Assembly: GCF_044792175.1 (NCBI RefSeq)
Contig: NZ_CP172866.1
Source of the DNA: Corallococcus coralloides
GTDB lineage: Bacteria; Myxococcota; Myxococcia; Myxococcales; Myxococcaceae
Direction: 5' to 3' (one strand)
DNA: 64,000 bases
Shown piece after piece: positions 14,810 to 31,887 of this stretch (within the stretch, counting starts at the first letter, position 1; each line of letters opens with the position of its first letter). Below the pieces are notes generated by a model. The model had not been told where the DNA came from. It saw only the letters and a list, made by a program, of their open reading frames with translations, and searched no databases. The position numbers and the translations under genes are program-made.

Positions 14810-15430
14810 TCAGCGGGGCGCGTAGTTGTGGCTCAGGTCGAAGACGAGCGTCTTCACGATGGGCGGGATGGAGAGCTCGATGCGGCCCCGGTTCAGGTCT
14901 CCGTGGGTGACCTGGTAGGAGAGGCCGCCGAACTCGTCATCGAAGGTGTAGTTGTCGTTGTCGAAGATGGAGATTTCGAGCGGGTAGCGCAGCAGGTTGG
15001 AGGTGATGATCTGGCAGCCGCCGGTGCGCCATTCGGGATCCCAGCTCTCGCTTTCCTCGGTGCGGGTGCGCTCGGGAGCGGAGGGGCAGTTCATCTCCAC
15101 GACGACGTCCGGCGGGGAGCCGTCGGAGTCCCAGTCCTCGCCCGTGTCCGGGTCGACGTCCGCGATGGTGGCGTACCGGGGCTGGATGAAGGTGCGCATC
15201 ACGCCCACGTAGCAGGTGTGCTGGTCGAGCCGGCAGACACTGCCCTCCGCGCAGGGTTCACAGACGCTGCCATCGGGGCCGCATTCCGAGTCGCTCCGGA
15301 ACGAGATGCACTCGTTGAACGAGGAGCAGCACCCGTCCGCGCAGTTCTCCGGGGTGCAGTCGTAGGGACCGCAGGCGGGGAGCCACAGCGCGCACATCAG
15401 GATGAACATCCAACCGCCGAGGACTTTCAT
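14810..15430 (-). CDS. Cys-rich secreted protein, paralog A of a two-member family in this window
   Basis: The protein has a signal peptide and about 12 Cys in its first 70 residues (CGPYDCTPENCADGCCSSFNEC...). Its conserved block DWDSDGSPPDVVVEMNCPSAP is shared with the protein encoded at 19500..20159. Confidence 0.6.
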   Translation of the reverse strand: MKVLGGWMFILMCALWLPACGPYDCTPENCADGCCSSFNECISFRSDSECGPDGSVCEPCAEGSVCRLDQHTCYVGVMRTFIQPRYATIADVDPDTGEDWDSDGSPPDVVVEMNCPSAPERTRTEESESWDPEWRTGGCQIITSNLLRYPLEISIFDNDNYTFDDEFGGLSYQVTHGDLNRGRIELSIPPIVKTLVFDLSHNYAPR

Positions 15431-15453: not shown

Positions 15454-15960
15454 TCAGGGCCTTCCGTCCCGGGCCTTGCGTGCGATGGCTTTCTCGTAGG
15501 CGGCCTGAAGCTCCCGGAACACCGAGCGGGGAGGGCGCGGCGCGTCCAGGTGCAGGTGGCGCAGCTCCTTCATGAACGCGTTCCAGAGGGGCGGGCCGCC
15601 CTTTTCAAGCAGCTCCGCGCGCACCGAAAGCTCCTCGGTCACCTGCGTGTGCCGGCGGCCCCAGGCGCCCAGGTGCGCGAGCAGGGGCACCAGTTGGATG
15701 GACGCCTCCGTGAGGCTGTAGATGCCCTTCTGCTGGTGGTTCGGATCCGGGCGGCGCGACAGCAGGCCGGACGCGGTCAGGCGCTTCAGCCGGTCCGCGA
15801 GGATGTTGGAGGCGATGCCCTCCTCGCTCCGTGAGAGCAGGTCACCGTAGCTGCGCCGGTTCCCGAACATGACGTCGCGGATGACGATCAGGCTCCAGCG
15901 GTCGCCGAGCTGTTCGAGCGTCAGGTTGATGGGGCAGCCGGAGCGCCCTGTCTGCGGCAT
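15454..15960 (-). CDS. HxlR-family (MarR-like) transcriptional regulator
   Basis: From the internal Met the protein reads MPQTGRSGCPINLTLEQLGDRWSLIVIRDVMFG, the HxlR winged-HTH signature. The gene is divergent from a GST gene. Confidence 0.85.
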   Translation of the reverse strand: MPQTGRSGCPINLTLEQLGDRWSLIVIRDVMFGNRRSYGDLLSRSEEGIASNILADRLKRLTASGLLSRRPDPNHQQKGIYSLTEASIQLVPLLAHLGAWGRRHTQVTEELSVRAELLEKGGPPLWNAFMKELRHLHLDAPRPPRSVFRELQAAYEKAIARKARDGRP

Positions 15961-16044
15961 GGCCGTGCTCCTGGGGATGCTGCTTGCAGTATGCAAGGGG
16001 TCGAAATACGGTTCAACCCATTGTGAAACGCAAGGGGTCGGACG

Positions 16045-16704
16045 ATGTCGCTCGCGGTCTACGGTCACTACTTCTCTTCGTACACGCAGAAGGTGCTCAT
16101 CGCGCTGTATGAGAACGGAACGCCCTTCGAGTTTCGAAGCATCAGCCCGGAGACGCCGGAGCACTCAGCCGAGTGGCTGCGCCGCTGGCCGCTGCGCAAG
16201 TTCCCGCTGCTGGTGGACGGTGACCGTCAGGTCGTCGAGACGAGCATCATCATCGAGTACCTCCAGCTCAAGCATCCCGGGCCGGTGCGCCTGCTGCCCG
16301 AGGATCCGATGGCCGCGCTGGACGTGCGGTTCCTCGACCGGTTCTTCGACCTGCACGTCATGAACGCGGCCCAGCACGCCGTGGACGGGGCGTTGACGGG
16401 GGACCCGGTGAAGCGCCAGGACGGGATGAAGCTGGCGGTGGAGAAGCTGGAGCGCGCCTACGGCTGGATTGAAGGGCAGTTGGGTGGCCGAACCTGGGCG
16501 GCGGGCAACGACTTCACGTTGGCGGACTGTGCGGCGGCGCCGTCGCTGTTCTACGCGGACTGGACGCACCGGATTCCCGAGTCGTGTCCCCAACTGCGCG
16601 CCTATCGCGCGAGGTTGCTCGCGCGTCCGTCTGTTGCCCGTGCGGTGGACGGGGGCCGGCCGTATCGGCATCTCTTCCCGCTGGGAGCGCCGGACCGCGA
16701 TTGA
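16045..16704 (+). CDS. Glutathione S-transferase
   Basis: The protein has the GST N-terminal thioredoxin-like and C-terminal helical domains (LPEDPMAALDVRFLDRF..., TLADCAAAPSLFYADW). Confidence 0.85.
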   Translation: MSLAVYGHYFSSYTQKVLIALYENGTPFEFRSISPETPEHSAEWLRRWPLRKFPLLVDGDRQVVETSIIIEYLQLKHPGPVRLLPEDPMAALDVRFLDRFFDLHVMNAAQHAVDGALTGDPVKRQDGMKLAVEKLERAYGWIEGQLGGRTWAAGNDFTLADCAAAPSLFYADWTHRIPESCPQLRAYRARLLARPSVARAVDGGRPYRHLFPLGAPDRD

Positions 16705-16711
16705 GCGAGGC

Positions 16712-18490: not shown

Positions 18491-18525
18491 CGAATGACTT
18501 TGGTTCTGGATGTTATAGCCCGGTC

Positions 18526-19512
18526 ATGCGATCCGACCTGGCAGAACGCTGGCTCACACCCGATGGTCAGCGCCGGCGCGAGCGCTTGATCGCCTCGGGA
18601 TTTCAAGGACCCTGGCGTGAAGTCCTCAAGGGCTTTCCGGGAGCAGATGCATTGGGACCCCACGTGGGGGATCTCCGAGGCATCGACCTCGCTCAGGAAG
18701 AGCTACCGGGCGCGGAGTTCGTTCATGTTCGGCTCGATGGCGCCCGCCTGGATGACTGCGGGCTCAACGAGGCGCGGCTCGACTTCACCACGCTGTCTGG
18801 TGCCTCGCTGACCTGGGCGCGCATGGAGCGCGCCAGCCTGATGGCTTGCGTCGCGATGGCCACGTGCTGGGACGATGCTTCCTTGGAAGGGGCAGTCCTC
18901 ACGGCTTCAAACCTGGTTCACGGCTCATTCCGTCGCGCCCGACTTCAGGGCGCCCGTTTGACCGCAGCGACGTTGATGAAGGCGGACCTGCGCTGCGCTG
19001 ATCTCCGAGGCGCGGAGTTGTCCTTCTGTGACATGGAGGAAGCGTGCGTCGCGGGTGTTCGCACGGATTGGCCTCGCACCTATGGGCGGGCAGGGCTGGG
19101 CAATGCGGACGTGAGCTATTACCGGGATCATGGCGGGTACCCATCATTCATGGATGCCATCCTGCTCGACCCGGGTATGCGCGCGCTCCGATGGTTGGAC
19201 AGGAAGGAAATCCTGATGCATGTGGAAGCAGCGGTCGAGATGAGCCCCGCGGTGGATGCTGAAATCCTCGCGCTCCTCCTGGATCCAGACTTTGAGGCAG
19301 CGGTGCGCTTACGACTCGAGGCCCCGGATGAGCTGCGGTACGAGGCTGCCTCCAGCCTCATGTGGGCTCTTGGCTTGGATCAAAGCAAGAATGTGTGGGG
19401 ACGCTCAGGGGTGTCGATTTGTCAGCGCTGGATGGCAAACCTCCGCAAGAACATGGCCGCCAGCATCCAACAACGCTGGCGGCGGGCCGAGGTGTCCGTC
19501 TATTCGGCGTAG
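18526..19512 (+). CDS. Pentapeptide-repeat protein
   Basis: The protein has runs of A(D/N)L-type pentapeptides (TLSGASLTWARMERASLMACVAMATCWDDASLEGAVLTASNLVHGSFRRARLQGARLTAATLMKADLRCADLRGAEL). I chose the internal ATG at 18526. Confidence 0.7.
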   Translation: MRSDLAERWLTPDGQRRRERLIASGFQGPWREVLKGFPGADALGPHVGDLRGIDLAQEELPGAEFVHVRLDGARLDDCGLNEARLDFTTLSGASLTWARMERASLMACVAMATCWDDASLEGAVLTASNLVHGSFRRARLQGARLTAATLMKADLRCADLRGAELSFCDMEEACVAGVRTDWPRTYGRAGLGNADVSYYRDHGGYPSFMDAILLDPGMRALRWLDRKEILMHVEAAVEMSPAVDAEILALLLDPDFEAAVRLRLEAPDELRYEAASSLMWALGLDQSKNVWGRSGVSICQRWMANLRKNMAASIQQRWRRAEVSVYSA

Positions 19513-20159
19513 TATGTGGTGATCTGGAGGGCCAAGGAGAGCAACGCACCGGAACTCGTGAACTCCACGACGCCACGGTCAATGTCGGCTCGGGTCATCT
19601 GATACTGCGCAGACGCAATCGGGTCGTCAAAGAGGGTGTCAACGTCAATGACGGTGAACTGGATGGGGGCCGAAAGCAGATCGGTACTCAGGACGTCGCA
19701 TGCCCCCTGCGTCCACGTAGGGGTGAAGCTTTCAACTTCCTCCGAAGGGGGCGCAGGCTGTGCGTTGGGACAGGACAGCTTGACCACGACATCCGGCGGC
19801 GAGCCATCTACGTCCCAGTCACTGTTGTCAGCAGGATCCTGCGGAGCGATCGTGGCGCGCAGGGGCTGGATCTTCGTGCGAATGGTGGGGGTGTAGCACT
19901 GTTGCTGTGACGGATGGCAGATGGTCCCGGTCGCGCACTTCGAGCATTTGGTGCCGGTAACACCGCACGCGTCGTTGGTACGAACTTCGACGCACTGGTT
20001 CGTGGTCGGATCGCAGCAGCCTGCACAATTCGCTGCAGTACAGATTTCTTCGAGTGGCGGGTTCTCCGTGATGGGGCCTGAGCTTGAGTCTTCGGGCCCA
20101 CAGCCTGCTAGCAAGAGAATCGACGTCAGCCCAAGAAGAATTCGGTTGTTGAATGTCAT
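19500..20159 (-). CDS. Cys-rich lipoprotein, paralog B (lipobox LLAGC)
   Basis: The protein starts MTFNNRILLGLTSILLLAGCG. It has a Cys-rich N-terminal region and the DWDVDGSPPDVVVKLSCPNAQ block shared with 14810..15430. It lies 6 nt downstream of the SIR2-like gene on the same strand and is lower in GC. Confidence 0.6.
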   Translation of the reverse strand: MTFNNRILLGLTSILLLAGCGPEDSSSGPITENPPLEEICTAANCAGCCDPTTNQCVEVRTNDACGVTGTKCSKCATGTICHPSQQQCYTPTIRTKIQPLRATIAPQDPADNSDWDVDGSPPDVVVKLSCPNAQPAPPSEEVESFTPTWTQGACDVLSTDLLSAPIQFTVIDVDTLFDDPIASAQYQMTRADIDRGVVEFTSSGALLSLALQITTYYAE

Positions 20160-20165
20160 TGGTTG

Positions 20166-21893
20166 TTAGTTGAGGTGGAGAACCAACACGCGGGTGCCTT
20201 TGTCCATGCGAACTTCAGCGGTGGCCATCCGAGTCACAGGAATGCTCGCGACCTGCGCCCTTCTGTTGCTGGGCGTGGGAGTGATGACGATGGGCGCAGG
20301 GTTCGGATACCCCAGGGCCGTGATGGTTGGGGCATCCGCGTAGCCCACGAGGTACAGGGATCCATCCGAGAGCGCGCGATGAAGCTCAATTCCCTCCTGG
20401 ATGAGGCCATAGATGGGTGTATCCGCGCTGTAGGTGGGAACGGTGCTCATCGGTACAAATGCGTAGCGTCCCCTGGGAAGCTGCGAGACGCGAGCCCCAC
20501 GCTCGGCGTCCGAAGCGGCGACGACCTGATGCTGCTGGCGAACGCTTCTGAGCGTGCTCGCGAGTGCCGGGACCGGAGCAGTCGTCGGGGGCTGCGGCTG
20601 GACAGGTCTCAGATTCCGCGGAGTCTGAACGACAAAGACGTCATTGTTGACGCTTTTGCTCGGGGATGGCCAGACCGCTGCCACGCCGCCAGCAATCAGC
20701 GCGGCAGCAGCAAACGGCAGGATTCTCCCGGAGCCTGATTTCGAAGGGCTGGCTGTGCCGTCCGTCTTCGGAGCGGAACGGGAAGCGGGACGATCCGAAG
20801 CGGAGGGCACAGGCTCGGGTGGCTTCGCCGCACTTGAGTGGGGCGAGGTCGCCGGCCCAGGGGCTCTGGTGGCCGAGGCGATTGGGATGGATGGCGGCGG
20901 TGGCTGTCGGACTGTGCTTGGAGGGGGCGACTGCGGGGCAACGGATGCGCCAAAGTGTTGACGCAGTTCAGGGAAGAATTTGTGGCAATCGATTCCGCCA
21001 TAACAACGAAGCCCTTTGTTGCCTCGTAAATTGGCAACCCTGCTGAAGAGCGTCGGATTACAGGCCTCGATTATAGCGTCATTCTTCTCGTAGAAACCCC
21101 AGAGGATGTCGACATCCTTGTGCCTGTCGACGTCAATCGCCGCGAGTGTCTGGGTGAAGACATCATCCCATCCGCCGTATCCGATAACGACAAGTGTGTG
21201 GCTTTGAAGGATCTGGATCAGTTCCGCAGAGACGAGTTTGCGCTCGCGACCAAGCTGGATGCCAGTGTGCAACGTAGGCGAGTCATGCCAGTAGCCGTGA
21301 AGGTGGATGATGTGCGTGGATTTGGAAGAGGAAGGAACCGTCTGCCCGAACGGGCTGTCGTGAGTCACGATCGTGCGATGGAAATCACCGCCAGCCACCT
21401 TCACCGATGCTGAGATGAGGGGATCAAAATTCGTGGTCAAGACGGGGCCAAACGTATCGGCTCTCTCCACCAGCAATCTTCCGAGATGCTCCGTCGCGGG
21501 AGGTAAGGCCCATCCGCCATAATCCAGATCCAGTTCGTCGTCAGTCGCTGCTCCATCGCGTTGGCGGTCCACCCGTGCGCGAAGCACAGCCTCTCGAACA
21601 ACCTTCTCGGAGACTTTCTTGTCCTCAAGGCCTTGCACGAAATGCATGGCCCATTGGTATCTGTTCTCTTTGGTGTGCTCGCGCTCCGTGTCGAATCTCG
21701 CCTTGAATCCGGTCGGGACGTGCTCGCGGATGAGATCCAGCATCGCCTCTACCCCAGGCACCTGGGGGGCGTCGGCTCGTTCCTGCGTCGACAAGGGGGA
21801 ACCGACCAGAAACGCGATTTTCCGGCTTTTGGCGGCAGTGATGACAGCGTTGGGGAGAGCATCCTTGGGATGCAGGAACGAATAGGAACTCAT
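20166..21893 (-). CDS. SIR2-like (SIR2_2/DHS-like NAD-binding) domain protein with Pro/Ser-rich linker, one TM helix and C-terminal domain
   Basis: The N-terminal 300 aa carry the SIR2_2 hallmarks FLVGSPLS, TTNFDPLIS, IIHLHGYW and VVIGYGGWDD. A low-complexity P/S/A linker follows, then a hydrophobic helix ILPFAAAALIAGGVAAVW and a roughly 160-aa C-terminal region. The gene is low in GC (about 48-55%). Confidence 0.75.
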   Translation of the reverse strand: MSSYSFLHPKDALPNAVITAAKSRKIAFLVGSPLSTQERADAPQVPGVEAMLDLIREHVPTGFKARFDTEREHTKENRYQWAMHFVQGLEDKKVSEKVVREAVLRARVDRQRDGAATDDELDLDYGGWALPPATEHLGRLLVERADTFGPVLTTNFDPLISASVKVAGGDFHRTIVTHDSPFGQTVPSSSKSTHIIHLHGYWHDSPTLHTGIQLGRERKLVSAELIQILQSHTLVVIGYGGWDDVFTQTLAAIDVDRHKDVDILWGFYEKNDAIIEACNPTLFSRVANLRGNKGLRCYGGIDCHKFFPELRQHFGASVAPQSPPPSTVRQPPPPSIPIASATRAPGPATSPHSSAAKPPEPVPSASDRPASRSAPKTDGTASPSKSGSGRILPFAAAALIAGGVAAVWPSPSKSVNNDVFVVQTPRNLRPVQPQPPTTAPVPALASTLRSVRQQHQVVAASDAERGARVSQLPRGRYAFVPMSTVPTYSADTPIYGLIQEGIELHRALSDGSLYLVGYADAPTITALGYPNPAPIVITPTPSNRRAQVASIPVTRMATAEVRMDKGTRVLVLHLN

Positions 21894-21932
21894 CGAGGGC
21901 GAACGCTATCAGAACCGCAGGCGGGGCCTAAT

Positions 21933-23498
21933 TCATGCGGCTCGCTCACTTGGTCGACCTTGTTCCTCCTCTTGGAGTGCCAATGTCTTCCGGTATTCCG
22001 CAGCCTCGGCCGCCCGGGTCAGTTCAAACTCACCGTGATGCTTGCGGACTGCCTCCGCGATCTCATCCAGGCCGACGCGGAAGAACTCCTTTCGCTCATT
22101 GATGCGGTTGACTCGCCGGTTCGCGAAGGCCTTGTGCAGGGCGTTCTCCAGGGCAGGGGCGTCCGAGGTCCGGATGATGGCGTGGACATCGAACTCGAAC
22201 GGCACCGAGGCATCTCCAAGTTCATCGATGCGGTCCTGGGGGACCAATCGTCGGGTCATCCCCAGCTTGAACACGCCCTCGCCGAAGGAACCAATATTGG
22301 AGATGACGTAGACGTGCCCGGTGCGGGTGAGCTGTGCCTGGGAGATGGCGCGCTGCTTCTCCATGTCTTCTGCCACACGGCGCTCCAGCTCCGCGATGCG
22401 CTCCATCAGCTTCTGCTGCTCCGAGCCCTTCGCCTGCTCGTAGTCCGCCCGCGCCTTGGCCAGCGCTTCTGCATCGCGCTTCGCTTCGCGCTCCGCTTCC
22501 AGCTTCGCCTTCTCCAACTCGCGTTGGGCGGCTTCCTCCTCACGCATCTGCTCCCGGATCCGGCGCTGCTCGTCACGCTCCTGCTGCACCTTCTCCTCGT
22601 ACTCGTACGCGAGCATCAGCTCCTCGACCTTGAGCTTGACGTAGCGCCTGGCGATGACGCACTGCTGGATCTCCGCGAGACCATTGATGGCGGCGGCTGC
22701 CTTCTCGATGCGCGTCTCCATGGCCTTGACGTTCTTGTAGGACACCTTCGCTACACACGCGTCCGCCTCGCCATTGAAGGCCCGGAGCATCAGCTTCAAG
22801 GTCCGCTCAATCTGCTTCTTGCCTTCCGCCTTGCTTCCATTCACTTCCCACTGAATGGAGCACGTGGCGGCTTCCTTGTTCTTCAGCATCTGCTTCTGAG
22901 CGTCGCGGATCTTCTCCAGCCGGTCCTCGTACTCCTTGACCGACGCCAGCGCGTACACCGGTTTGTAGAAGCCGAAGGAGAGCAGGACCTCCTCTTCCTC
23001 CAGTGCCTTCAACTCGGCCCTCAGGCGGGCGATGCCTGACTCCAGGTTGGTCCGCTCAGCGTTCGCCTGCTTTCGACGGGCTTCTGCCTCCTCCATGGCG
23101 CGCGTCGCGCTTTGCGTCGTCCGGCTCGTCTCTTCGCGGAGCCGGTTCAACTCCGCTTTCGCTCGGCCCTGCTCAGCGGCGATGGCCTGCTCAACGTCCG
23201 CTTTTGCCCGGGCAAGCTCGGTCTCTACCCGCTTCCGCTCCGCCGCCAGTGCACTGTCCGCTTCGCTCCGTGCCTTCGCCAAATCGTCCTGGACCCGCTT
23301 CTGTTCCGCGGCCATCGCGGTGGTCGCGTCCGTGCGGGCCCGCGTCAACTCCTCCGCGACCCGGCGCCGTTCGGCCTCCAGGTCCAGGATGGGCTTGAAT
23401 CGTTCCTGGACGGCTTTGAGCCGGCTCTGTGTCCGCAGCCACAAGCCAAGGAGCAACAGGCCCAGAATGCCCAGGCCAATGGCGATGATCGTTGTCAT
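21933..23498 (-). CDS. Membrane-anchored coiled-coil protein with DUF4041 and C-terminal T5orf172 (GIY-YIG-like) domain
   Basis: I chose the internal ATG at 23498, which has AGGAGA 6 nt upstream and avoids overlap with the helicase gene. The N-terminus has a TM helix (TTIIAIGLGILGLLLLGLWL), and about 200 aa of E/R/A-rich coiled coil follow. The C-terminus reads GHVYVISNIGSFGEGVFKLGMTRRLVPQDRIDELGDASVPFEFDVHAIIRTSDAPALENALHKAF...EFF, the T5orf172/MUG113 signature. Confidence 0.75.
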   Translation of the reverse strand: MTTIIAIGLGILGLLLLGLWLRTQSRLKAVQERFKPILDLEAERRRVAEELTRARTDATTAMAAEQKRVQDDLAKARSEADSALAAERKRVETELARAKADVEQAIAAEQGRAKAELNRLREETSRTTQSATRAMEEAEARRKQANAERTNLESGIARLRAELKALEEEEVLLSFGFYKPVYALASVKEYEDRLEKIRDAQKQMLKNKEAATCSIQWEVNGSKAEGKKQIERTLKLMLRAFNGEADACVAKVSYKNVKAMETRIEKAAAAINGLAEIQQCVIARRYVKLKVEELMLAYEYEEKVQQERDEQRRIREQMREEEAAQRELEKAKLEAEREAKRDAEALAKARADYEQAKGSEQQKLMERIAELERRVAEDMEKQRAISQAQLTRTGHVYVISNIGSFGEGVFKLGMTRRLVPQDRIDELGDASVPFEFDVHAIIRTSDAPALENALHKAFANRRVNRINERKEFFRVGLDEIAEAVRKHHGEFELTRAAEAAEYRKTLALQEEEQGRPSERAA

Positions 23499-23511
23499 GG
23501 ATGTCTCCTGT

Positions 23512-26500
23512 TCAGGCGCTGACGGCCCGCATCTGATGCTCCACCGGGGACTCTTCACGCACGACGGCTGGCAGCTCAGCCGCCTCCTCCCGAAGGAGCT
23601 CCTCGACGCGCGCGACGATCCGGGCGACCTCTTCTGAAGGCGAGCGGAACCAGTCCGTGGACCAGATGCGGTGAAGCTTCCACCCCAGGCCCTTCAACAC
23701 CTGGTCCCGGAGCCGGTCCCGGTCCCGCGCGGAACGCGACGAGTGGTACCGCTCGCCGTCACACTCGACACCGAGGATGTACCGGCCTGGTTGCTGGGGA
23801 TGCCGGAGGGCCATGTCGATGAAGTAGCCCGCAACGCCTACCTGCGGAACCACCTCGAAGCCCCGCGCCGCGAGCGCCTTCGCGACGGCGATTTCGAAGT
23901 CGGAATCCGGTGGACGGCCGCTCCCCACGCCGTGCGCCACCTTCTCTCCCTTGGCTTCGGACAGGTACCGTTGCAGGACGCGCATCCCACGGGGACTGCT
24001 CTCCTGGACCTTGAGCTGTGACGGGTCGAAGGACGCGAACACCGTCAGTGCACACCGCGCCCTCGTGAAGAGGACGTTCAACCGGCGGTATCCGTCCGCC
24101 TGGTTGATGGGCCCGAAGTTCATCCGGAAGCGCTCGTTCTTGTCGGGACCGAACGTGACCGACACGAAGATGGCGTCGCGCTCGTCGCCTTGCACGTTCT
24201 CCAGGTTCTTCACGTCGAAGGGCATGGGTGACTTCTCCCACTTCGCCAGGAAGGCTCGGAGGGTCGCGTCGTTCTTCTCCTCGGCAGTCACCAGGTCGTC
24301 GATGAGATCCCGCTGCTTCGAATTCAGCGTGACGACCAACAGGCTCTGCTCAGGACGTGTCCGCGCGTGCTCCTTCACCTTCGCCAGCACTTCGCGGGCT
24401 TCGGGGACGTTTCGGTTGGACTCGTACAGTCCTCCGTCCACTTTGTGGAAGCGCAGCCCCAAACCTTCCAGTTGCTCACCTGGTGCAGGGAAGGTGATGA
24501 GGTCGCCGTTGTAGAACTCACGATTGCTGAAGGCGATGAGCGAGGGGTGACGTGAACGGTAATGCCAGCGCAGCATGCGCATGGGGAACCGCTCCGCCGC
24601 CGCCGTGAGGATGCTCTCTGAATCCTCCAGGAAGGACGGGCCCTGAGCCTCGTCTCCCGCCTCGTCGTTGGACTCTGTGTCCTCCTGTTCCATCTGGGCG
24701 AAGAAGCTGGTGGGAGGGAGTTGCTCCGGGTCGCCCACTACCACCAACTGTCTCCCTCGCGCGATGGCGCCCAGCGCATCTTCGGGACGCATCTGGCTGG
24801 CCTCGTCCATCACGACCAGGTCGAAGGTCAACTGGCCGGCGGGCAGGTACTGGGCGACCGACTGCGGACCCATCATGAAACACGGCATCAGCGTCTGGAG
24901 CGCACTGCCGGCACGGGCGACCAGTTCACGAATGGGGAGGTGCCGCTGCTTCTTTCCCAACTCGTGCCGCAGAAGATGGGTCTCCGTCATACCCGCCACT
25001 TTCGCCGAGGACACACCCGGAGGAACCGGACGCTGGCTGAGTTGACGTGCCAGGTATCGGCCCTGCCTTTCGATGCAATGCGTGTCCAGGCGTGCGAACT
25101 CCTCTCTCTGGGAGGCATGAACGGCGCCCGTGAACTGGTCGAGCTCGGGTTGGTCTCGCAGGATGGCTTCCGCCAGGGAGCGGAAGAAGACAGCGTCGAA
25201 GGCCGCGACCAGCCGTTCCGGCTCCAGGCCCGGACGTGTGTCGACGCGCTCCAGGAACCCAGCGGTGCTCCGCGCTCGCGCGACGGCACGCCGCTGCCGT
25301 TGATACGCGCACCAGGCTGGAAGCGTCGCGGACTGGCTTCGGGCCTGGCGCAGTCGCAAGACCGTCGATTGGAGCGGCTTCTCGGCGGCGAGATCCTCCC
25401 AGGTGCCCTGGGCCATCCTTCCCAGCTCCCGGGCTTGGGTTGCGGACTGTCTGTAGGCACTGAGGGCTGTCTCCAATTCGTTCGTGATGGCGAGCAGGTC
25501 CGCGTGCCTTCGTGGCGTGTCCTCTCGTAGCAGCCACTCCGCCAGCCCTTCAGGGAGCGGCGCCGCGAGGAGGTCATCAACATGTCGGAGGATGCTTCGG
25601 GGACCCGCTAGGGAGGTTTTCCGCCCCTGGTAGGCCACCCCTGGCAGGGTCGCCGCGGAAGCGTGCGCTTCCAGCCGGTCTGCGGCTTCGCACGCTTCAC
25701 GCACCCGGCGCAGTTGTCCCTGGAGTTGGGAGAGGGTCAGGGACGGCGGGGCATCTCCCTTCCGTGCCCAGTTCAGGACCTGGCTCAGGTGCTTCAGCAG
25801 GGCGTCGAGGCTGTCCTGGGCCTTTCCGCAGGACTCGGTGTTCCAGGGGGCGCTCGGCAGCCCCATGCGCGTCGAGGCTTCTTGCACGAAAGTGCTTACG
25901 TCTCGGACTTGGGACAGTTCTTCGCTCTTCGCGCGGACCATCGCCAGGATCTCGCGCCAATGGCTCGGGGAACGCTCCAACACTGCTCGGCGTAGCTCCA
26001 AACCTCGCTCACCCATGGGGAGGATCAATGCGTCGATGTTCCGGTATGCGTCCAACCACGAAAGGATTCGGTCGAAGCGTGTCTCGACCCCCTGGAAGCG
26101 GGCGCCAAGGGTCGCTTTCAAGGTCGCGTCCTCCTGGAACCGCTCCCGTGCCGCGTAATGAGCCAGCAGGTCGTTGTAGCCCTGAACCAGTACGGGCCTT
26201 GTTGGACGTACGCCATGTGCCATGGCCTGGAAGTCCCGCCGCGCGGCGCGCCAAGCGCTCGAGAGCCAGGGGATGAATGGCGCGGTTGAAACCGCAACCG
26301 CATGGGACTTGAGCGTCGCGAGGGGAGGAACGAGTTCGGGCATGAAGCGCACCGCGAGCGCCCGTGCCTGATCTTTCAATTCCGTACAGGTGCTGTCAGC
26401 CTTCCGAAGTGTCTCCTCGGCTTCGCGTTCGATCCAGCACGGGTCCCGCCACTCCAAAGTGGTGTCGTCCAGGGCGGCCATCGCCTCGACGACGCGGGCG

Positions 26501-28710
26501 AAAGACTGGAGCTGCTGGGGCGTCCAGCGCGTGACGTCGACTTCCAGGCGGGAGGCCACGTCGGCCGCGAACCGGCGAGCCTGCGCCAGGATTCGAGCAG
26601 CGGCCTCCACCGCTTCATGCGCGCGCGTCAGTGTCACGAGCGTGGTGTCAGGCGAGAGCAGACGCAGGGCCATGTCGAGGACGGCTTCCGCGCCGCGCAG
26701 CGCGGACGCGGTCAGGTCTTCCTGGGCACGCCAGCCTGCCTCCAACCCCGCCCACCGGGCCTGGACCGCTTCAATGGCATCAAGCAGGGCTCGTAATCCC
26801 TCTCTCTGCGTGGAATCGAGCAGGGCAGGGACCAGCGTCGCGGGAGTCCCTTCTGGAAGCCGTGGCAGGACTCGGACGTTGGAGATCAGCGCATCCACCG
26901 CGAGTGCGCTCGAGCTGGGCGTGACGCCCGTGCGGACGGTGAAGGCCGCCAGCGCCTTCTCCAGGAGCAGCGCGGACTCCTCCCAGGTGGCGATACGCTG
27001 AACGAGTGTCTGACGGTCCTTGTCGGTCAGCGCATCGTTCGTCACACCCGCCCAGGGGTGGGCACTGAGGATGGGCGCGACGCGGCGAACATCCCCAAGC
27101 TGCGCCGCGAGACTCCGAACCGCGTCGCGAACCTCCGATAGCGCATGGGTAGACATGCCTTCGGCGCCCTCGAAGCGGAGGCCTTCCAGCTCCACGACCG
27201 CGTCTCCCAGTTCCGATTCCGCGCGACTGACCTTCCAGAACACGTCATGCGGTGACATGCCGAGTGTCCCGAACGGCTTGTGCATTCGCTCGGTATGCGC
27301 GCGCAGGATGCCCGCCGCGTTCGAGACCTGTTCGGTGAGCGGGCGGGGAGCGGTCGCGCTCGCATCCAGGTTGAGTCGGCGACGCAGGTCCTCCATGAAC
27401 TGCTGTTTCTGGGTCTTGTGGCTGTGCAACTCCAGGCAGAACTCGCCGAGCCCCGCATGCTGGAGGCGGCGTGAGACGACCTCCAACGCCGCCAACTTCT
27501 GCGTGACGAACAGCACGGTCTTGCCCGCCGCCAACGCCGCGCCAATGAGGTTGGTGATGGTCTGTGATTTCCCGGTGCCGGGCGGCCCTTGCACCACCAG
27601 ATTCTCGCCCCGGAGCACGTCCACCAACACGCTGTGCTGGCTGCTGTCCGCGTCCGTGATGAGTGGCGGCGGATTGACCTCCTGCGAGTCCAAATCGTAG
27701 ACCTCGCTCCGGCGCTCCCGGCTGCCCCCGCCACCTCCGCCAGGTTCGTTCGCCTCCGCCTGTCCTCCCATCAGCGTCCGGACGAGCGGGTTCGCCAGCA
27801 TGGGGCTGTTCTGAGGCCAGCGGCTGGGCTCCAGGTCCCGCCACATCAGGAGCCGCCCGAAGGACAGGAGCGTCAGGGTCACCTGCCGCTCCAGGCTCCA
27901 GCCAGGGCGCAGGCCTTTGAGCAGCGCCGTCACCTTGTCGAAGTACGCCTCCAGCCCCTCCTCCGCGGAGAAGGCCGGCAGCGTGATGCCGAACTCCTGC
28001 CGCAGCTTCTCCTGGAGCGTGAGGTTCGAGTCGATGGACTCGCCTTCATTGTAGTCCACCTCGTAGGAGTGGACCTGCGTCTCCGGGTGGGCTTGGCCGC
28101 GTTTGAGGCTCACAGGCATGAGCACGAGTGGAGCGCTGCGAGGCTTCTCCTGCCGCGTGTCGCCGGACTCGTACCAGCGCAGGAACCCGAAGGCGAAGTG
28201 GAGCAGATTGGCCCCGGTCTCCTGGATGGCCGTTTGCGCGAGGCCCTGGAGTCGGTGCAGGTGGCTCTCCAGATCCTCCGGGAAGTACAACGTCTGGAGG
28301 TGGCGATCCTGGTGCTTGCGAGGATTGCTGCCGCTCTCTGCCGGGACCGCCTTGGGCAGCTCATACCGGGTATCGATGCCCAGCTTCTTCGCTTGTTGAA
28401 GCAGCAGCTTCTGCCGAGCGTCCTTGCTTGGGGCCTCCTCCGTCGTCATCGAAAACACCACCGTCGCGGCGGCGGGATCGAAGTCCTCCTCTTCCTCGGA
28501 GGCTTGCTCCGGTGGCATCACCGGAAGGAACGTGAGCGCGCGGTGGTTGCTCAGGCGCTCGAAGACGACACCTGGCAGTTCATCCACAATGCGCAGCGAC
28601 GTCCGGGCCGTGTGCTTGAAGTTGAGGAGTCGGTTGGTTGCGCTCAAATCCAGCAACCGGGTGCGTTGCCGCTGAAGCTCTTTCAGCAGGACCGAGTCGT
28701 GCGGATTCAT
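23512..28710 (-). CDS. Giant SF1 (Upf1-like, AAA_11/AAA_12) helicase with DUF4011-like N-terminus and C-terminal DUF559/Vsr-like endonuclease (REase_MTES/DUF3320) domain
   Basis: The start is the ATG at 28710 (MNPHDSVLLKELQRQRTRLLDLSATNRLLNF). The earlier ORF start at 28869 would add a low-complexity extension. The Walker A motif is VVQGPPGTGKSQTITNLI. The helicase has QLVVVGDPEQLPPT (motif III-like) and NVLFTRARCALTVF (motif VI). The C-terminus reads GYFIDMAL...ILGVECDGERYHSSRSARDRDRLRDQVLKGLGWKLHRIWSTDWF, the DUF559/Vsr-fold endonuclease motif. Confidence 0.85.
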   Translation of the reverse strand: MNPHDSVLLKELQRQRTRLLDLSATNRLLNFKHTARTSLRIVDELPGVVFERLSNHRALTFLPVMPPEQASEEEEDFDPAAATVVFSMTTEEAPSKDARQKLLLQQAKKLGIDTRYELPKAVPAESGSNPRKHQDRHLQTLYFPEDLESHLHRLQGLAQTAIQETGANLLHFAFGFLRWYESGDTRQEKPRSAPLVLMPVSLKRGQAHPETQVHSYEVDYNEGESIDSNLTLQEKLRQEFGITLPAFSAEEGLEAYFDKVTALLKGLRPGWSLERQVTLTLLSFGRLLMWRDLEPSRWPQNSPMLANPLVRTLMGGQAEANEPGGGGGGSRERRSEVYDLDSQEVNPPPLITDADSSQHSVLVDVLRGENLVVQGPPGTGKSQTITNLIGAALAAGKTVLFVTQKLAALEVVSRRLQHAGLGEFCLELHSHKTQKQQFMEDLRRRLNLDASATAPRPLTEQVSNAAGILRAHTERMHKPFGTLGMSPHDVFWKVSRAESELGDAVVELEGLRFEGAEGMSTHALSEVRDAVRSLAAQLGDVRRVAPILSAHPWAGVTNDALTDKDRQTLVQRIATWEESALLLEKALAAFTVRTGVTPSSSALAVDALISNVRVLPRLPEGTPATLVPALLDSTQREGLRALLDAIEAVQARWAGLEAGWRAQEDLTASALRGAEAVLDMALRLLSPDTTLVTLTRAHEAVEAAARILAQARRFAADVASRLEVDVTRWTPQQLQSFARVVEAMAALDDTTLEWRDPCWIEREAEETLRKADSTCTELKDQARALAVRFMPELVPPLATLKSHAVAVSTAPFIPWLSSAWRAARRDFQAMAHGVRPTRPVLVQGYNDLLAHYAARERFQEDATLKATLGARFQGVETRFDRILSWLDAYRNIDALILPMGERGLELRRAVLERSPSHWREILAMVRAKSEELSQVRDVSTFVQEASTRMGLPSAPWNTESCGKAQDSLDALLKHLSQVLNWARKGDAPPSLTLSQLQGQLRRVREACEAADRLEAHASAATLPGVAYQGRKTSLAGPRSILRHVDDLLAAPLPEGLAEWLLREDTPRRHADLLAITNELETALSAYRQSATQARELGRMAQGTWEDLAAEKPLQSTVLRLRQARSQSATLPAWCAYQRQRRAVARARSTAGFLERVDTRPGLEPERLVAAFDAVFFRSLAEAILRDQPELDQFTGAVHASQREEFARLDTHCIERQGRYLARQLSQRPVPPGVSSAKVAGMTETHLLRHELGKKQRHLPIRELVARAGSALQTLMPCFMMGPQSVAQYLPAGQLTFDLVVMDEASQMRPEDALGAIARGRQLVVVGDPEQLPPTSFFAQMEQEDTESNDEAGDEAQGPSFLEDSESILTAAAERFPMRMLRWHYRSRHPSLIAFSNREFYNGDLITFPAPGEQLEGLGLRFHKVDGGLYESNRNVPEAREVLAKVKEHARTRPEQSLLVVTLNSKQRDLIDDLVTAEEKNDATLRAFLAKWEKSPMPFDVKNLENVQGDERDAIFVSVTFGPDKNERFRMNFGPINQADGYRRLNVLFTRARCALTVFASFDPSQLKVQESSPRGMRVLQRYLSEAKGEKVAHGVGSGRPPDSDFEIAVAKALAARGFEVVPQVGVAGYFIDMALRHPQQPGRYILGVECDGERYHSSRSARDRDRLRDQVLKGLGWKLHRIWSTDWFRSPSEEVARIVARVEELLREEAAELPAVVREESPVEHQMRAVSA

Positions 28711-28814
28711 GGAGGTGCCCCCCGGGTCGTCATGGGTGGGACGACCTGGCACCCAGGTTCTGGCGCACTCCTCGCCGCGGTTGCATCCCCCGTGAGGGTG
28801 ATTGACACCCACGC

Positions 28815-28857
28815 GAAAACGCCGCCTCGCTTCCGGAGGACCGGAAACGGGCGGCGT
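28815..28857 (-). terminator. Rho-independent terminator of the ABC-F gene
   Basis: The plus strand 28819-28857 reads aa-gccgcc-tcgc-ttccgg-agga-ccggaa-acg-ggcggc-gt. It has an outer stem of about 8 bp and an inner stem of 6 bp. On the minus-strand RNA the hairpin is followed by UUUUCGCG. Confidence 0.45.
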
Positions 28858-28882
28858 AGGCACTGCCAAGAGTAGCGAAGGA

Positions 28883-31887
<3,005 letters not shown>

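What the first reader, a model, noticed from the sequence alone, without database searches (positions are those of the whole stretch)
20166..28710. Three-gene co-directional cluster: giant SF1 helicase-endonuclease, TM-anchored DUF4041+T5orf172 protein, SIR2-TM protein; candidate undescribed anti-phage defence island
The three genes lie tandemly on the minus strand with 13-nt and 39-nt gaps, which suggests one transcription unit. All three domain types are hallmarks of defence islands. SIR2_2 domains act as NADase effectors in several defence systems. T5orf172/GIY-YIG domains and Upf1-like helicase-nuclease fusions are also typical of defence loci. I do not recognise this exact combination (DUF4011-like/AAA_11/AAA_12/DUF559 helicase, coiled-coil DUF4041-T5orf172 with N-terminal TM, SIR2 with internal TM) as any named system. 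The cluster abuts a terminator-ended ABC-F gene, lies 2 kb from tgt, and its distal part is AT-rich relative to the genome.
Basis: partly seen in the sequence, partly recalled or inferred. Interest (0 to 1): 0.85.

Follow-up and report, generated by a model that had tools for sequence, protein, structure and literature searches.

The report
Defence island hiding a new two-gene module
The three genes are not one new system: two belong to known single-gene anti-phage families (Hhe-like helicase-nuclease, SNIPE membrane nuclease), while the third, a membrane-spanning SIR2 NAD-degrading enzyme, is always paired with an overlooked fourth gene for a cysteine-rich C2-domain lipoprotein, and this pair looks like an undescribed defence module that may sense events outside the cytoplasm.

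Summary
Three co-directional minus-strand genes, with 13-nt and 39-nt gaps, carry the stated domains and have atypical codon usage (GC3 0.68-0.82, against 0.93-0.97 in the flanks). The site between ABC-F/tgt and a conserved lipoprotein gene is a variable hotspot: another Corallococcus strain carries Tiamat-like TmtA plus a NERD-UvrD helicase there instead.

The single-system interpretation is only partly supported.
- Gene A is an Hhe-family helicase-nuclease. Its best PADLOC model is PDC-S37, and it scores below the NCBIfam Hhe cut-off.
- Gene B is a SNIPE/PD-lambda-1 homologue. Its 54-67% identical relatives in Myxococcus, Archangium and Sorangium stand alone.
- Gene C (SIR2, one transmembrane segment, an uncharacterised 130-aa C-terminal domain I call CTD) is followed after 6 nt by a missed gene D (19500-20159). 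D is a lipoprotein with ten conserved cysteines and a C2 fold.

In all 14 distinct loci examined, a protein built as effector-TM-CTD is directly followed by a D homologue. The effector varies: SIR2, TIR, PNP-type phosphorylase, metallophosphatase or an FAD/NAD Rossmann protein. Outside Corallococcus these pairs occur without A or B. I found neither the pair nor the CTD in PADLOC, Pfam or the searchable literature.

Best reading: a three-module defence island whose new part is C+D, probably an envelope-triggered NAD+-depleting abortive-infection module. That mechanism is inferred, not shown.

The parts
23512..28710 (-). Gene A: Hhe-family helicase-nuclease, 1732 aa. DUF4011 at about 28003-28659; Walker A GPPGTGKS at residue 380; Walker B DEAS at 1307; helicase C-core at about 24034-24828; MTES_1575/DUF559-like nuclease at about 23608-23898.
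   Evidence: Pfam. PADLOC PDC-S37 E 0 / 1267 bits and Hhe 948 bits. NCBIfam Hhe_antiphage 1448.7 bits in one colinear stretch, cut-off 2000; ProA 1139, cut-off 1500. 37-38% identical to PGAP-annotated Hhe on plasmids. Motifs. GC3 0.807.
21933..23498 (-). Gene B: SNIPE/PD-lambda-1 homologue, 521 aa. N-terminal TM at about 23436-23495; coiled coil; DUF4041 at about 22629-22796; T5orf172/GIY-YIG at about 22041-22319.
   Evidence: Pfam DUF4041 1.4e-20 and T5orf172 1.7e-17. PADLOC PD-Lambda-1 2.2e-153, model positions 51-478 of 496. Hydrophobic residues 1-24 followed by R/K. SNIPE architecture and mechanism in PMC13190303. Homologues stand alone in L088-L091.
20166..21893 (-). Gene C: SIR2-TM-CTD protein, 575 aa. 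SIR2 domain at about 20946-21893, with TTNFDPL (N155, D157) and HLHG (H199); Pro/Ser-rich linker; hydrophobic segment at about 20664-20720; uncharacterised C-terminal domain (CTD) at 20169-20558.
   Evidence: Pfam SIR2_2. AlphaFold model confident for residues 1-316 and 445-575. Foldseek top hits are SPARSA SIR2, ThsA, DSR2, SIR2-HerA and KomC. Invariant motifs, aligned with FAM118B. The CTD has no Pfam or PDB sequence match, but 499 representative clusters carry it. GC3 0.675.
19500..20159 (-). Lipobox LLAGC (Cys20); region of ten conserved Cys at about 19896-20042; C2-fold domain at about 19503-19892 with conserved WDxDGSPPDVVV and DVD..FDD acidic motifs. It starts 6 nt after C.
   Evidence: Alignments A2, A3 and A6. 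AlphaFold pLDDT above 90 for residues 90-219. Foldseek hits are C2 domains: 3w56 at 2.5e-6, cPLA2 1rlw with TM 0.69. Precomputed Pfam C2 on paralogues. No PADLOC, Pfam or NCBIfam hit for D1 itself. A D homologue lies downstream of every CTD protein examined.
19456..19483 (-). 12-bp-stem GC-rich hairpin directly downstream of the D1 stop. Possible end of the transcription unit, but the T-run is weak.
   Evidence: Terminator scan; sequence.
28711..28882 (-). Intergenic region between ABC-F and gene A. It holds the ABC-F intrinsic terminator (GCCGCC...GGCGGCGTTTT) and presumably the island's promoter.
   Evidence: Sequence and RNA fold. No sigma-70 consensus found.
28883..30481 (-). Conserved flank: ABC-F ATPase. 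GC3 0.955; 96% identical in C. praedator.
14813..15430 (-). Conserved flank: orphan D2 paralogue, a C2 lipoprotein with GC3 0.927. It bounds the variable site in the window, L002, L003 and L085. It has no adjacent CTD protein here.
   Evidence: (Pfam C2 E 7e-4, below cut-off).

Best explanation
The region is a defence island at a chromosomal hotspot of Corallococcus, between ABC-F/tgt and a conserved C2-lipoprotein gene. It carries three functionally separable modules, transcribed in one direction.

1. **Gene A** is an Hhe-family DUF4011 / SF1-helicase / Vsr-like nuclease. By homology it is a single-protein system that acts on nucleic acid.
2. **Gene B** is a SNIPE (PD-lambda-1) homologue. [quoted passage not shown] By homology it cuts phage DNA as it is injected.
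3. **Genes C and D1** form a previously undescribed two-gene module.
   - C has a cytoplasmic SIR2 NADase domain, one membrane-spanning segment and a roughly 130-aa C-terminal domain (CTD) predicted to lie outside the cytoplasm.
   - D1 is an exported lipoprotein with a disulfide-rich region and a C2-fold (calcium/lipid-binding type) domain.

**Proposed mechanism (inferred).** D1 and the CTD form an extracytoplasmic sensor. It detects an envelope event during phage attack and switches on the cytoplasmic SIR2 domain. NAD+ is then depleted and the infection is aborted.

**Shown.**
- Domain content and fold matches.
- Conserved catalytic motifs.
- Strict C-D adjacency across 14 loci.
- Exchange of the effector domain (SIR2, TIR, PNP, metallophosphatase, FAD/NAD-Rossmann) while TM-CTD and D are kept.
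- Independence from A and B outside Corallococcus.

**Inferred.**
- Membrane topology.
- Physical CTD-D contact.
- The trigger.
- NADase activity.
- Phage protection.
For: **A and B belong to known single-gene families.**
- HMM matches and plasmid Hhe hits.
- The SNIPE paper.
- B homologues stand alone in L088-L091.

**The site is a hotspot.**
- The same flanks carry different cargo. L002/L003 have A-B-C-D1. L085 has TmtA (E 9e-110) plus a NERD-UvrD helicase.
- GC3 is 0.675-0.816 for the four defence genes A-D1 (up to 0.852 for the rest of the cargo), against 0.93-0.97 in the flanks. C and D1 are more atypical than A and B.
- Between the window and L002, A and B are 69% and 87% identical, but C and D1 only 47% and 54%.

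**C+D is a unit.**
- D follows C in Corallococcus (L001-L003), in L004, in L081/L082 (overlapping stop and start), in L083, in L084 and in L094.
- A CTD profile finds 499 clusters.
- Larger members carry PNP_UDP_1, TIR, SIR2, Metallophos, an FAD/NAD Rossmann domain or EAD5 at the N-terminus. A hydrophobic segment lies just before the CTD in the four non-SIR2 proteins whose loci were examined and in most of the other 34 large proteins scanned.
- Every such protein whose locus could be fetched is followed by a D homologue: PNP in L092, TIR in L095, FAD-like in L096, Metallophos in L097 (E 1e-33 to 1e-96; hhalign probability 100).
- Pairwise identities of CTD and D co-vary (Mantel r 0.87, p 2e-4).

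**Effector type.**
- The nearest solved folds to the SIR2 domain are all anti-phage NADases.
- Its nearest sequence relatives are fused to STAND NTPases.

**D is exported.** It has a lipobox, ten conserved Cys and a C2 fold.
Against: - No experiment exists for any part.
- A, B, C and D1 are close-packed and co-directional. They travel together in at least three Corallococcus species, so co-regulation or synergy is not excluded.
- AlphaFold gives low confidence for the proposed TM segment of C and does not model it as a helix.
- Many CTD-only proteins of 130-160 aa lack a signal peptide or TM. Small N-terminally anchored versions have positive charges after the TM. The side of the membrane on which the CTD sits is therefore unsettled.
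- D-like lipoproteins also occur as orphans without a CTD partner: D2 in the window and in L085, and several metagenomic loci.
- The C+D family is rare and mostly myxobacterial. The adjacency sample is 14 loci, some of them related.
- The Mantel signal is dominated by close relatives.
- Gene A scores below the curated Hhe and ProA cut-offs.
Confidence: 0.68

Rival explanations
1. A, B and C (with or without D1) form one integrated multi-gene defence system: helicase-nuclease sensor, membrane nuclease and NADase effector acting together.
For: Tight co-directional packing with 13-, 39- and 6-nt gaps, and no terminator-like hairpin found between the four genes. The four genes occur in the same order in C. 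sicarius and C. praedator. The PhageMaP preprint reports that phage NAD+-regenerating genes partly counter Hhe.
Against: Each part occurs without the others. Hhe stands alone on plasmids. SNIPE homologues at 54-67% identity stand alone in Myxococcus, Archangium and Sorangium. C+D occurs without A or B in L004, L081, L083, L084 and L094, and with other effectors in L092 and L095-L097. Hhe and SNIPE each protect as single genes in the literature (PMC11482910, PMC13190303). GC3 and divergence differ between A/B and C/D1.
Confidence: 0.1
2. C+D is a real two-gene module but not antiviral. It may couple an extracytoplasmic cue (envelope stress, outer-membrane exchange or kin discrimination, attack by a competitor) to NAD+/nucleotide depletion or signalling in social or predatory myxobacteria.
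For: The family is concentrated in Myxococcota. In L092 the neighbours include Imm52, DUF2380 and Gmx_para_CXXCG, which are families associated with polymorphic-toxin and immunity loci. An orphan D2 paralogue with core-like codon usage suggests a non-defence role for some D proteins. No viral relatives of the CTD or D were found.
Against: In Corallococcus the module sits in a hotspot whose other cargo is Hhe-like, SNIPE, Tiamat-like and NERD-helicase genes. The effector repertoire (SIR2, TIR, PNP, metallophosphatase, plus EAD5) is that of anti-phage abortive-infection systems. The nearest SIR2 structures are all anti-phage NADases.
Confidence: 0.15
3. C is a self-sufficient single-gene SIR2 defence protein (DSR-like), and the lipoprotein gene is a neighbour kept only by shared ancestry.
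For: Single-protein SIR2 systems exist (DSR1/DSR2; structural hits). D-like lipoproteins can exist alone.
Against: Adjacency holds in 14 of 14 loci at 20-50% CTD identity. It survives replacement of the whole effector domain and relocation to unrelated genomic contexts. Gaps are often 4-6 nt or overlapping. The D family has only about 19 clusters (90% identity) among 5.8 billion, so chance adjacency is negligible.
Confidence: 0.05

Closest known systems
Hhe (Gao et al. 2020 set; NCBIfam NF042953 'DUF4011 domain-containing anti-phage protein Hhe'), PADLOC candidate PDC-S37 and NCBIfam ProA
   Same: Gene A has the same colinear architecture: N-terminal DUF4011, an SF1 helicase split by a long insert, and a C-terminal Vsr/DUF559-type nuclease. 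It matches the Hhe model over residues 12-1723 in a single stretch. It is 37-38% identical to annotated Hhe.
   Different: It scores 1449 bits against the curated cut-off of 2000 (ProA 1139 against 1500), so it is not an equivalog of either. Its best PADLOC model is the untested candidate PDC-S37. It is chromosomal, at a myxobacterial hotspot, and sits directly upstream of SNIPE.
SNIPE / PD-lambda-1 (Vassallo et al. 2022 screen; Saxton et al., Nature 2026, PMC13190303)
   Same: Gene B has an N-terminal single TM followed by positive charges (N-out predicted), a long helical region, DUF4041 (Pfam now names this family SNIPE) and a C-terminal GIY-YIG/T5orf172 nuclease. PADLOC PD-Lambda-1 E 2e-153, near full length.
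   Different: The N-terminal region is unrelated in sequence, as the paper reports for homologues in general. The host is a myxobacterium, so the partners ManYZ and the lambda tape-measure protein do not apply. Activity is untested.
SIR2 NADase defence effectors: ThsA (Thoeris), DSR1/DSR2, SIR2-HerA, SPARSA SIR2-APAZ, SIR2-STAND (Avs-type), human FAM118B
   Same: The SIR2 domain of gene C has the same fold (Foldseek E 2e-10 to 1e-7) and keeps the TTNFD and H-x-H-G catalytic motifs. Its nearest sequence relatives are SIR2 domains fused to NB-ARC or nSTAND NTPases. The probable output is NAD+ depletion.
   Different: It has no SLOG, HerA, Argonaute/APAZ, DSR2 C-terminal or STAND sensor. Instead it has a TM segment, an uncharacterised CTD and a separate C2 lipoprotein. 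The sensor part is predicted to lie outside the cytoplasm.
Membrane or envelope-linked defence systems (SNIPE, Kiwa, Zorya), as concepts
   Same: A defence protein is placed at the inner membrane, with possible detection of events during phage entry.
   Different: There is no sequence or domain relation. C+D couples a lipoprotein with a C2 fold to swappable nucleotide-degrading effectors.
Eukaryote-type C2 domains (cPLA2, synaptotagmin, PKC)
   Same: The C-terminal 130 aa of D1 adopt the C2 beta-sandwich (TM about 0.7 to the target) and carry conserved acidic loop motifs.
   Different: Sequence identity is 12-18%. Pfam C2 is below threshold. The protein is a bacterial exported lipoprotein with an additional ten-cysteine region. 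Ca2+ or lipid binding is untested.

Membership tests
Hhe (NCBIfam NF042953 equivalog) | N-terminal DUF4011 domain | tested here: met
   Pfam DUF4011 E 8.4e-35, residues 18-236.
Hhe (NCBIfam NF042953 equivalog) | SF1 helicase core (AAA_11/AAA_12) with intact Walker A and B | tested here: met
   Pfam. GPPGTGKS at 380, DEAS at 1307, LFTRA at 1551.
Hhe (NCBIfam NF042953 equivalog) | C-terminal Vsr/DUF559-type endonuclease | tested here: met
   MTES_1575 E 3.8e-37; DUF559 E 3e-3; residues 1605-1701.
Hhe (NCBIfam NF042953 equivalog) | Whole-protein score at or above the curated cut-off (2000 bits) | tested here: not met
   1448.7 bits. It is colinear (2-1701 of 1797) but below the cut-off. ProA scores 1139 against 1500.
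Hhe (NCBIfam NF042953 equivalog) | Confers phage resistance as a single gene | not testable with these tools
   Needs cloning and phage challenge.
PADLOC PDC-S37 (single-gene candidate) | Match to model PDLC05009 | tested here: met
   E 0, 1267 bits, in 3 stretches. The best stretch covers residues 999-1714 against model 647-1350 of 1550. PADLOC's own system-level rules were not run.
SNIPE / PD-lambda-1 | DUF4041 (Pfam PF13250, now named SNIPE) in mid-protein | tested here: met
   E 1.4e-20, residues 235-290.
SNIPE / PD-lambda-1 | C-terminal GIY-YIG/T5orf172 nuclease | tested here: met
   T5orf172 E 1.7e-17 and MUG113 E 8.6e-17, residues 394-486. The GHVYVISN...KLGMTRR motif is present.
SNIPE / PD-lambda-1 | N-terminal single TM anchor with the nuclease in the cytoplasm | tested here: met
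   The Kyte-Doolittle peak is 2.47 at residues 1-24, followed by R/K. This is prediction only; topology was not measured.
SNIPE / PD-lambda-1 | Near full-length match to the PADLOC PD-Lambda-1 model | tested here: met
   E 2.2e-153, residues 91-515 against model 51-478 of 496.
SNIPE / PD-lambda-1 | Cleaves phage DNA during injection; acts as a single gene | not testable with these tools
   Homologues stand alone in other myxobacteria. Activity needs experiment.
Thoeris ThsA | SIR2 fused to a SLOG (or Macro) signal-binding domain, with a ThsB TIR partner | tested here: not met
   There is no SLOG or Macro hit and no TIR gene adjacent. Only the SIR2 fold is shared.
DSR2 / DSR1 | SIR2 with a large cytoplasmic C-terminal sensor domain; single gene | tested here: not met
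   The C-terminal part is a linker, a TM segment and a 130-aa CTD. No PADLOC Dsr model hit was listed. There is an obligate downstream partner gene.
SIR2-HerA and SPARSA (SIR2-APAZ/pAgo) | Adjacent HerA ATPase or short Argonaute partner | tested here: not met
   The neighbours are SNIPE and the D1 lipoprotein. The PADLOC pAgo-SIR2 hit covers only SIR2 residues 143-270 (E 1.4e-8).
SIR2-STAND (Avs-type) | STAND NTPase domain fused to SIR2 | tested here: not met
   Gene C has no NTPase domain. Relatives of its SIR2 domain do carry NB-ARC or nSTAND5.
Immune-type SIR2 NADase (fold and active site) | SIR2 Rossmann fold with the conserved Asn/Asp (TTNFD) and His (HxHG) motifs | tested here: met
   Foldseek E 2e-10 to SPARSA SIR2, and also to ThsA and DSR2. 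N155, D157 and H199 are invariant in the family and aligned to FAM118B. Enzymatic activity is not testable here.
C2 domain | Eight-stranded C2 beta-sandwich | tested here: met
   Model pLDDT above 90. Foldseek 2.5e-6 to 3w56, and TM 0.69-0.72 to cPLA2 and intersectin C2.
C2 domain | Pfam PF00168 above the gathering score | tested here: not met
   D1 has no Pfam hit at E 0.01 or better. D2 scores 20.2 bits against a cut-off of 22. Some paralogues carry a precomputed weak hit.
C2 domain | Ca2+-dependent phospholipid binding | not testable with these tools
   Conserved Asp clusters (D116, D118, D123, D172, D174, D179) are suggestive only.

The most novel reading that the evidence does not exclude
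C+D1 represents a new family of two-gene immune systems. A periplasmic sensor, formed by an uncharacterised CTD and a disulfide-rich C2-domain lipoprotein, detects phage attack at the cell envelope before or during genome entry. It signals across the inner membrane through a single helix and activates interchangeable cytoplasmic effectors (SIR2, TIR, PNP nucleosidase, metallophosphatase, an FAD/NAD-Rossmann protein). This would be a transmembrane-receptor style of bacterial immunity, and a bacterial use of the C2 fold in defence.
Probability: 0.35. Interest if true: 0.85.

Novelty: new variant of a known kind. Interest (0 to 1): 0.68.

Why it matters
Most characterised abortive-infection systems sense phage components inside the cytoplasm. 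C+D suggests a different arrangement: the conserved, presumably sensing, parts (CTD and lipoprotein) lie on the far side of a membrane-spanning segment from a swappable NAD+/nucleotide-degrading effector. If that holds, bacteria would have receptor-like transmembrane immune signalling, with a testable minimal pair of genes. It would also assign a role to a domain family of about 500 clusters that has no annotation, and to bacterial C2-fold lipoproteins. The locus further documents a core-genome defence hotspot in Corallococcus with exchangeable cargo (Hhe-like plus SNIPE plus SIR2 module, or Tiamat-like plus NERD helicase), which is useful for mining myxobacterial immunity. For the finding as originally written, the practical message is a correction: two of the three genes are already-known defence families.

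Tried and rejected
- **Trio as one system.** Rejected on distribution.
- **Mobile-element signatures.** No tRNA in 8-40 kb. No flanking direct repeats beyond chance-level 16-37-mers. No integrase was seen among the ORFs read. The island therefore looks like a core hotspot rather than an obvious integrative element.
- **Promoter scan.** No sigma-70 consensus was found. This is uninformative for myxobacteria.
- **Viral contig scans with CTD and D profiles.** Nothing found.
- **Metagenome scan with the D profile.**
  - Of 27 loci, only one (L107) had a CTD upstream.
  - This showed that orphan D-like lipoproteins exist, so the pairing rule runs one way only.
- **Literature.**
  - No paper was found on TM-anchored SIR2, on SIR2 with a C2 lipoprotein, or on the origin of NCBIfam 'ProA'. 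The library covers open-access papers only.
  - My initial recollection that Hhe came from the PADLOC paper was wrong. A review lists it with the Gao et al. 2020 set.
- **Fold of the CTD on its own.** There were no PDB or Pfam sequence hits.
  - The afdb50 library was unavailable.
Full report
**1. What is in the sequence**

The window comes from a Corallococcus coralloides chromosome: the SIR2 protein is 100% identical to an NCBI C. coralloides entry on a 9.66-Mb contig.

On the minus strand lie gene A (23512..28710, 1732 aa from the ATG), gene B (21933..23498, 521 aa) and gene C (20166..21893, 575 aa). The gaps are 13 nt (ACAGGAGACATCC, with an AGGAG) and 39 nt.
- A: DUF4011, AAA_11/AAA_12 and MTES_1575 (DUF559-like).
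- B: DUF4041 and T5orf172/MUG113.
- C: SIR2_2.

B has a strongly hydrophobic N-terminus (residues 1-24), and C has one hydrophobic segment at about 389-410. A hairpin followed by TTTT lies after the ABC-F stop codon.

Two things were missed. First, a fourth co-directional gene, D1 (19500..20159, 219 aa), starts 6 nt after C and is followed by a 12-bp-stem hairpin. Second, A and B are not orphan domain combinations (section 2).

**2. Genes A and B belong to known single-gene defence families**

*Gene A.*
- It matches PADLOC PDC-S37 (E 0, 1267 bits) and PADLOC Hhe (948 bits).
- It matches the NCBIfam equivalog 'DUF4011 domain-containing anti-phage protein Hhe' in one colinear stretch (residues 12-1723 against model 2-1701 of 1797). 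The score is 1448.7 bits against a cut-off of 2000.
- 'ProA' scores 1139 bits against a cut-off of 1500.
- It is 37-38% identical to PGAP-annotated Hhe on Vibrio and Klebsiella plasmids. There Hhe has no DUF4041 or SIR2 neighbour.
- Walker A and B and the nuclease region are intact.
- Hhe is described as a single gene with helicase and nuclease domains (PMC11482910). A review lists it with the Gao et al. 2020 systems (PMC13223576).

Gene A is thus an Hhe-family member, but not an equivalog of Hhe.

*Gene B.*
- It matches PADLOC PD-Lambda-1 at E 2.2e-153, nearly end to end.
- PD-lambda-1 has been renamed SNIPE. It has been shown in E. coli to be an inner-membrane-anchored nuclease: N-terminal TM with the N-terminus outside, cytoplasmic DNA-binding DUF4041, and a GIY-YIG nuclease. 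It cuts phage DNA during injection and acts as a single gene (Saxton et al., PMC13190303).
- B has the same layout.
- More than 7,600 homologues exist. In M. xanthus, Archangium violaceum and Sorangium, the 54-67% identical homologue has neither a helicase nor a SIR2 neighbour.

**3. The site is a variable hotspot**

The flanks are tgt and ABC-F on one side. On the other side are an orphan D-like lipoprotein (D2, 14813..15430), a P460-like lipoprotein, BrkB and rml genes. Cargo differs between strains:
- In C. sicarius (L002) and C. praedator (L003) the order is ABC-F, A, B, C, D1, D2.
- In Corallococcus sp. CA053C (L085) the same flanks enclose a PADLOC TmtA (Tiamat) match (E 9e-110) and a NERD-UvrD helicase (E 1e-51).
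- The window has a further insert between D1 and D2: a pentapeptide-repeat gene, a 592-aa secreted hydrolase-like gene, a GST and an HxlR-like regulator.

Third-position GC is 0.93-0.97 in the flank genes. In the cargo it is 0.807 (A), 0.816 (B), 0.675 (C), 0.705 (D1), 0.705 (pentapeptide) and 0.852 (592 aa). No tRNA, integrase or flanking repeats were seen.

Between the window and L002, ABC-F is 96% identical, A 69%, B 87%, C 47% and D1 54%. C and D1 therefore diverge together, and faster than A and B.

**4. The real partner of the SIR2 gene is the lipoprotein gene**

Full-length relatives of C are few: nine Corallococcus clusters plus a handful of others. All other hits share only the N-terminal SIR2 domain, which in them is fused to NB-ARC, nSTAND_NTPase5 or TPR. 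In the family alignment the following are conserved:
- the SIR2 domain, with invariant TTNFDPL and HLHG;
- a hydrophobic stretch of about 20 aa;
- a C-terminal domain of about 130 aa (CTD).

Every full-length relative whose locus could be read is followed on the same strand by a D homologue. This holds for L001-L003, and for L004 (a record labelled Comamonas sp. KCTC 72670, 33% identical, with no A or B within 5.3 kb upstream). It also holds for L081/L082 (stop and start overlap), L083, L084 (Myxococcus sp., between housekeeping genes and preceded by an HSDR_N-domain gene) and L094.

D proteins share a lipobox, ten conserved cysteines, and a C-terminal half with the motifs WDxDGSPPDVVV and DVD..FDD. 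The AlphaFold model (pLDDT above 90 for residues 90-219) matches C2 domains: 3w56 at E 2.5e-6, and cPLA2 C2 with TM 0.69. Some paralogues carry weak Pfam C2 hits. Only about 19 D clusters were found among 5.8 billion clusters (90% identity).

**5. Effector swapping**

A profile of the CTD searched against 1.84 billion representative proteins found 499 clusters at E of 1e-3 or better, and 80 at 1e-10 or better. Among 34 larger proteins with the CTD at the C-terminus, the N-terminal domains were:
- PNP_UDP_1 in 7;
- TIR (TIR_2, ThsB_TIR, CAP12-PCTIR) in at least 5;
- SIR2_2 in 5;
- an FAD/NAD-Rossmann region in 4;
- Metallophos in 2;
- one PNP protein with an N-terminal EAD5.

Of the 34 proteins, 29 have at least one hydrophobic segment. 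In most of those it lies a few dozen to about 100 residues before the CTD, but five carry theirs only near the N-terminus.

I fetched one locus for each non-SIR2 effector type. In each, the next gene is a D homologue: PNP in L092/L093, TIR in L095, the FAD-like protein in L096 and Metallophos in L097/L098. HMM E-values range from 1e-33 to 1e-65, and hhalign gives probability 100 (E 7e-55) for L092. Including L107, this makes 14 distinct loci, and all 14 show the pairing.

The converse does not hold. D-like lipoproteins also occur without a CTD neighbour: D2, L085 and several metagenomic loci. CTD and D pairwise identities co-vary (Mantel r 0.87, p 2e-4), although close relatives dominate this signal.

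Neither C's CTD nor D has a PADLOC, Pfam or NCBIfam match. C hits only SIR2-domain models weakly. No paper was found describing such a pair.

**6. How it most likely works**

*Shown.*
- The SIR2 domain of C has the fold of anti-phage NADases. Its top matches are SPARSA SIR2, ThsA, DSR2, SIR2-HerA and KomC.
- It keeps the catalytic motifs.
- D carries an export and lipidation signal and a cysteine pattern typical of oxidised, extracytoplasmic proteins.
- The TM-CTD portion and D are retained while the effector domain changes.

*Inferred.*
- C is inserted with the SIR2 domain in the cytoplasm and the CTD outside. The effector needs cytoplasmic NAD+, there is one TM, and the charge bias is weak but in the right direction.
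- The CTD contacts D in the periplasm.
- An envelope event during phage attack changes this contact and activates the effector, probably by oligomerisation as in other SIR2 and TIR systems.
- NAD+ is then depleted and the infection is aborted.

I put about 0.7 on the three-module reading with C+D as a genuine unit, and about 0.5 on the specific envelope-triggered NADase mechanism.

*Caveats.*
- AlphaFold is not confident about the TM segment.
- Many small CTD-only proteins lack export signals.
- The C+D family is phylogenetically narrow.
- Co-regulation or synergy with A and B in Corallococcus cannot be excluded. In this connection, the PhageMaP preprint noted that phage NAD+-regenerating genes partly counter Hhe.

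**7. Comparison with known systems, and verdict**

A is a new member of the Hhe family and B a new member of the SNIPE family.

C+D works like the SIR2, TIR and PNP abortive-infection effectors. It fails the membership tests for Thoeris, DSR, SIR2-HerA, SPARSA and SIR2-STAND, because their sensor or partner parts are absent. It is best called a new variant of NADase-type defence with a novel, probably extracytoplasmic, sensor pair.

The 'three-gene system' is not supported.

Noticed in passing
window 14813-15430 (-) and 14279-14761 (-): An orphan paralogue (D2) of the C2 lipoprotein has core-like codon usage (GC3 0.93). It sits at the edge of the hotspot next to a P460-like lipoprotein, and is conserved in L002, L003 and L085 without an adjacent CTD protein. 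Its role and its relation to D1 (37-40% identical) are unexplained.
   Followed up: partly
L085 2335-9472 (Corallococcus sp. CA053C, RAWA01000037): The same chromosomal site carries a Tiamat-like TmtA (SACS/NOV_C, 1803 aa; PADLOC E 9e-110) and a NERD-UvrD helicase (PADLOC RTasNERD-Hel, E 1e-51) instead of A-B-C-D1.
   Followed up: yes
window 15454-19512: An extra insert lies between D1 and D2, absent from L002/L003. It holds an HxlR-like regulator (-), a GST (16045-16704, +), a 592-aa secreted serine-hydrolase-like protein (16712-18490, -; GC3 0.85) and a pentapeptide-repeat protein (18475-19512, +; GC3 0.705). The pentapeptide gene converges on D1 and overlaps its 3' end by 13 nt. None has a PADLOC hit.
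   Followed up: partly
L084 6693-7901 and L083 3902-5134: In Myxococcus sp. XM-1-1-1 and a related metagenomic contig, a 400-aa protein with an HSDR_N (type I restriction R-subunit N-terminal) domain lies directly upstream of the SIR2-D pair. It is 80% identical between the two loci, while the SIR2 proteins are only 42% identical. It could be a third component in that lineage or a conserved neighbour.
   Followed up: no
P0286, P0293, P0296, P0305, P0310, P0318 and many others: Most of the 499 CTD-family clusters are small proteins of 130-260 aa. Several start right at the domain and have no signal peptide or TM. Others have an N-terminal TM followed by positive charges. Some short entries are gene fragments (for example P0261). 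Their contexts could not be fetched.
   Followed up: partly
P0271, P0274, P0275, P0283 (L096 6001-8448): Proteins of 730-815 aa have an N-terminal FAD/NAD(P) Rossmann motif region, a TM, a CTD and a downstream D lipoprotein. This effector type has no obvious precedent among defence effectors. P0368, P0372 and P0400 have N-terminal regions with no Pfam match.
   Followed up: no
P0290: One PNP-TM-CTD protein carries an N-terminal Effector-associated domain 5 (EAD5). This adaptor domain is typical of NTPase-based conflict systems and hints at recruitment by another partner.
   Followed up: no
L092 3882-5318 and 8569-9336: The neighbours of the PNP-TM-CTD + D pair include the Gmx_para_CXXCG, DUF2380 and Imm52 families, which are associated with myxobacterial paralogous lipoprotein or toxin-immunity loci.
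   Followed up: no
window 28711-28869: The longest ORF of gene A starts at a TTG at 28869 and would run through the ABC-F terminator hairpin. The ATG at 28710 is the more plausible start, but no clear Shine-Dalgarno sequence precedes it.
   Followed up: partly
window 20166-28710; literature (PMC11482910): The PhageMaP preprint reports that the NAD+-regenerating genes of phage Bas63 partly counter E. coli Hhe. Here an Hhe-like gene lies two genes from an NADase gene. This may be coincidence or a hint of functional synergy; it was not tested.
   Followed up: no
literature (PMC10250203): In Pseudomonas aeruginosa a large DUF4011 gene is a core gene flanking defence hotspot cDHS1. DUF4011 helicases are therefore not always mobile cargo. 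In Corallococcus the gene is variable: it is absent in L085.
   Followed up: partly
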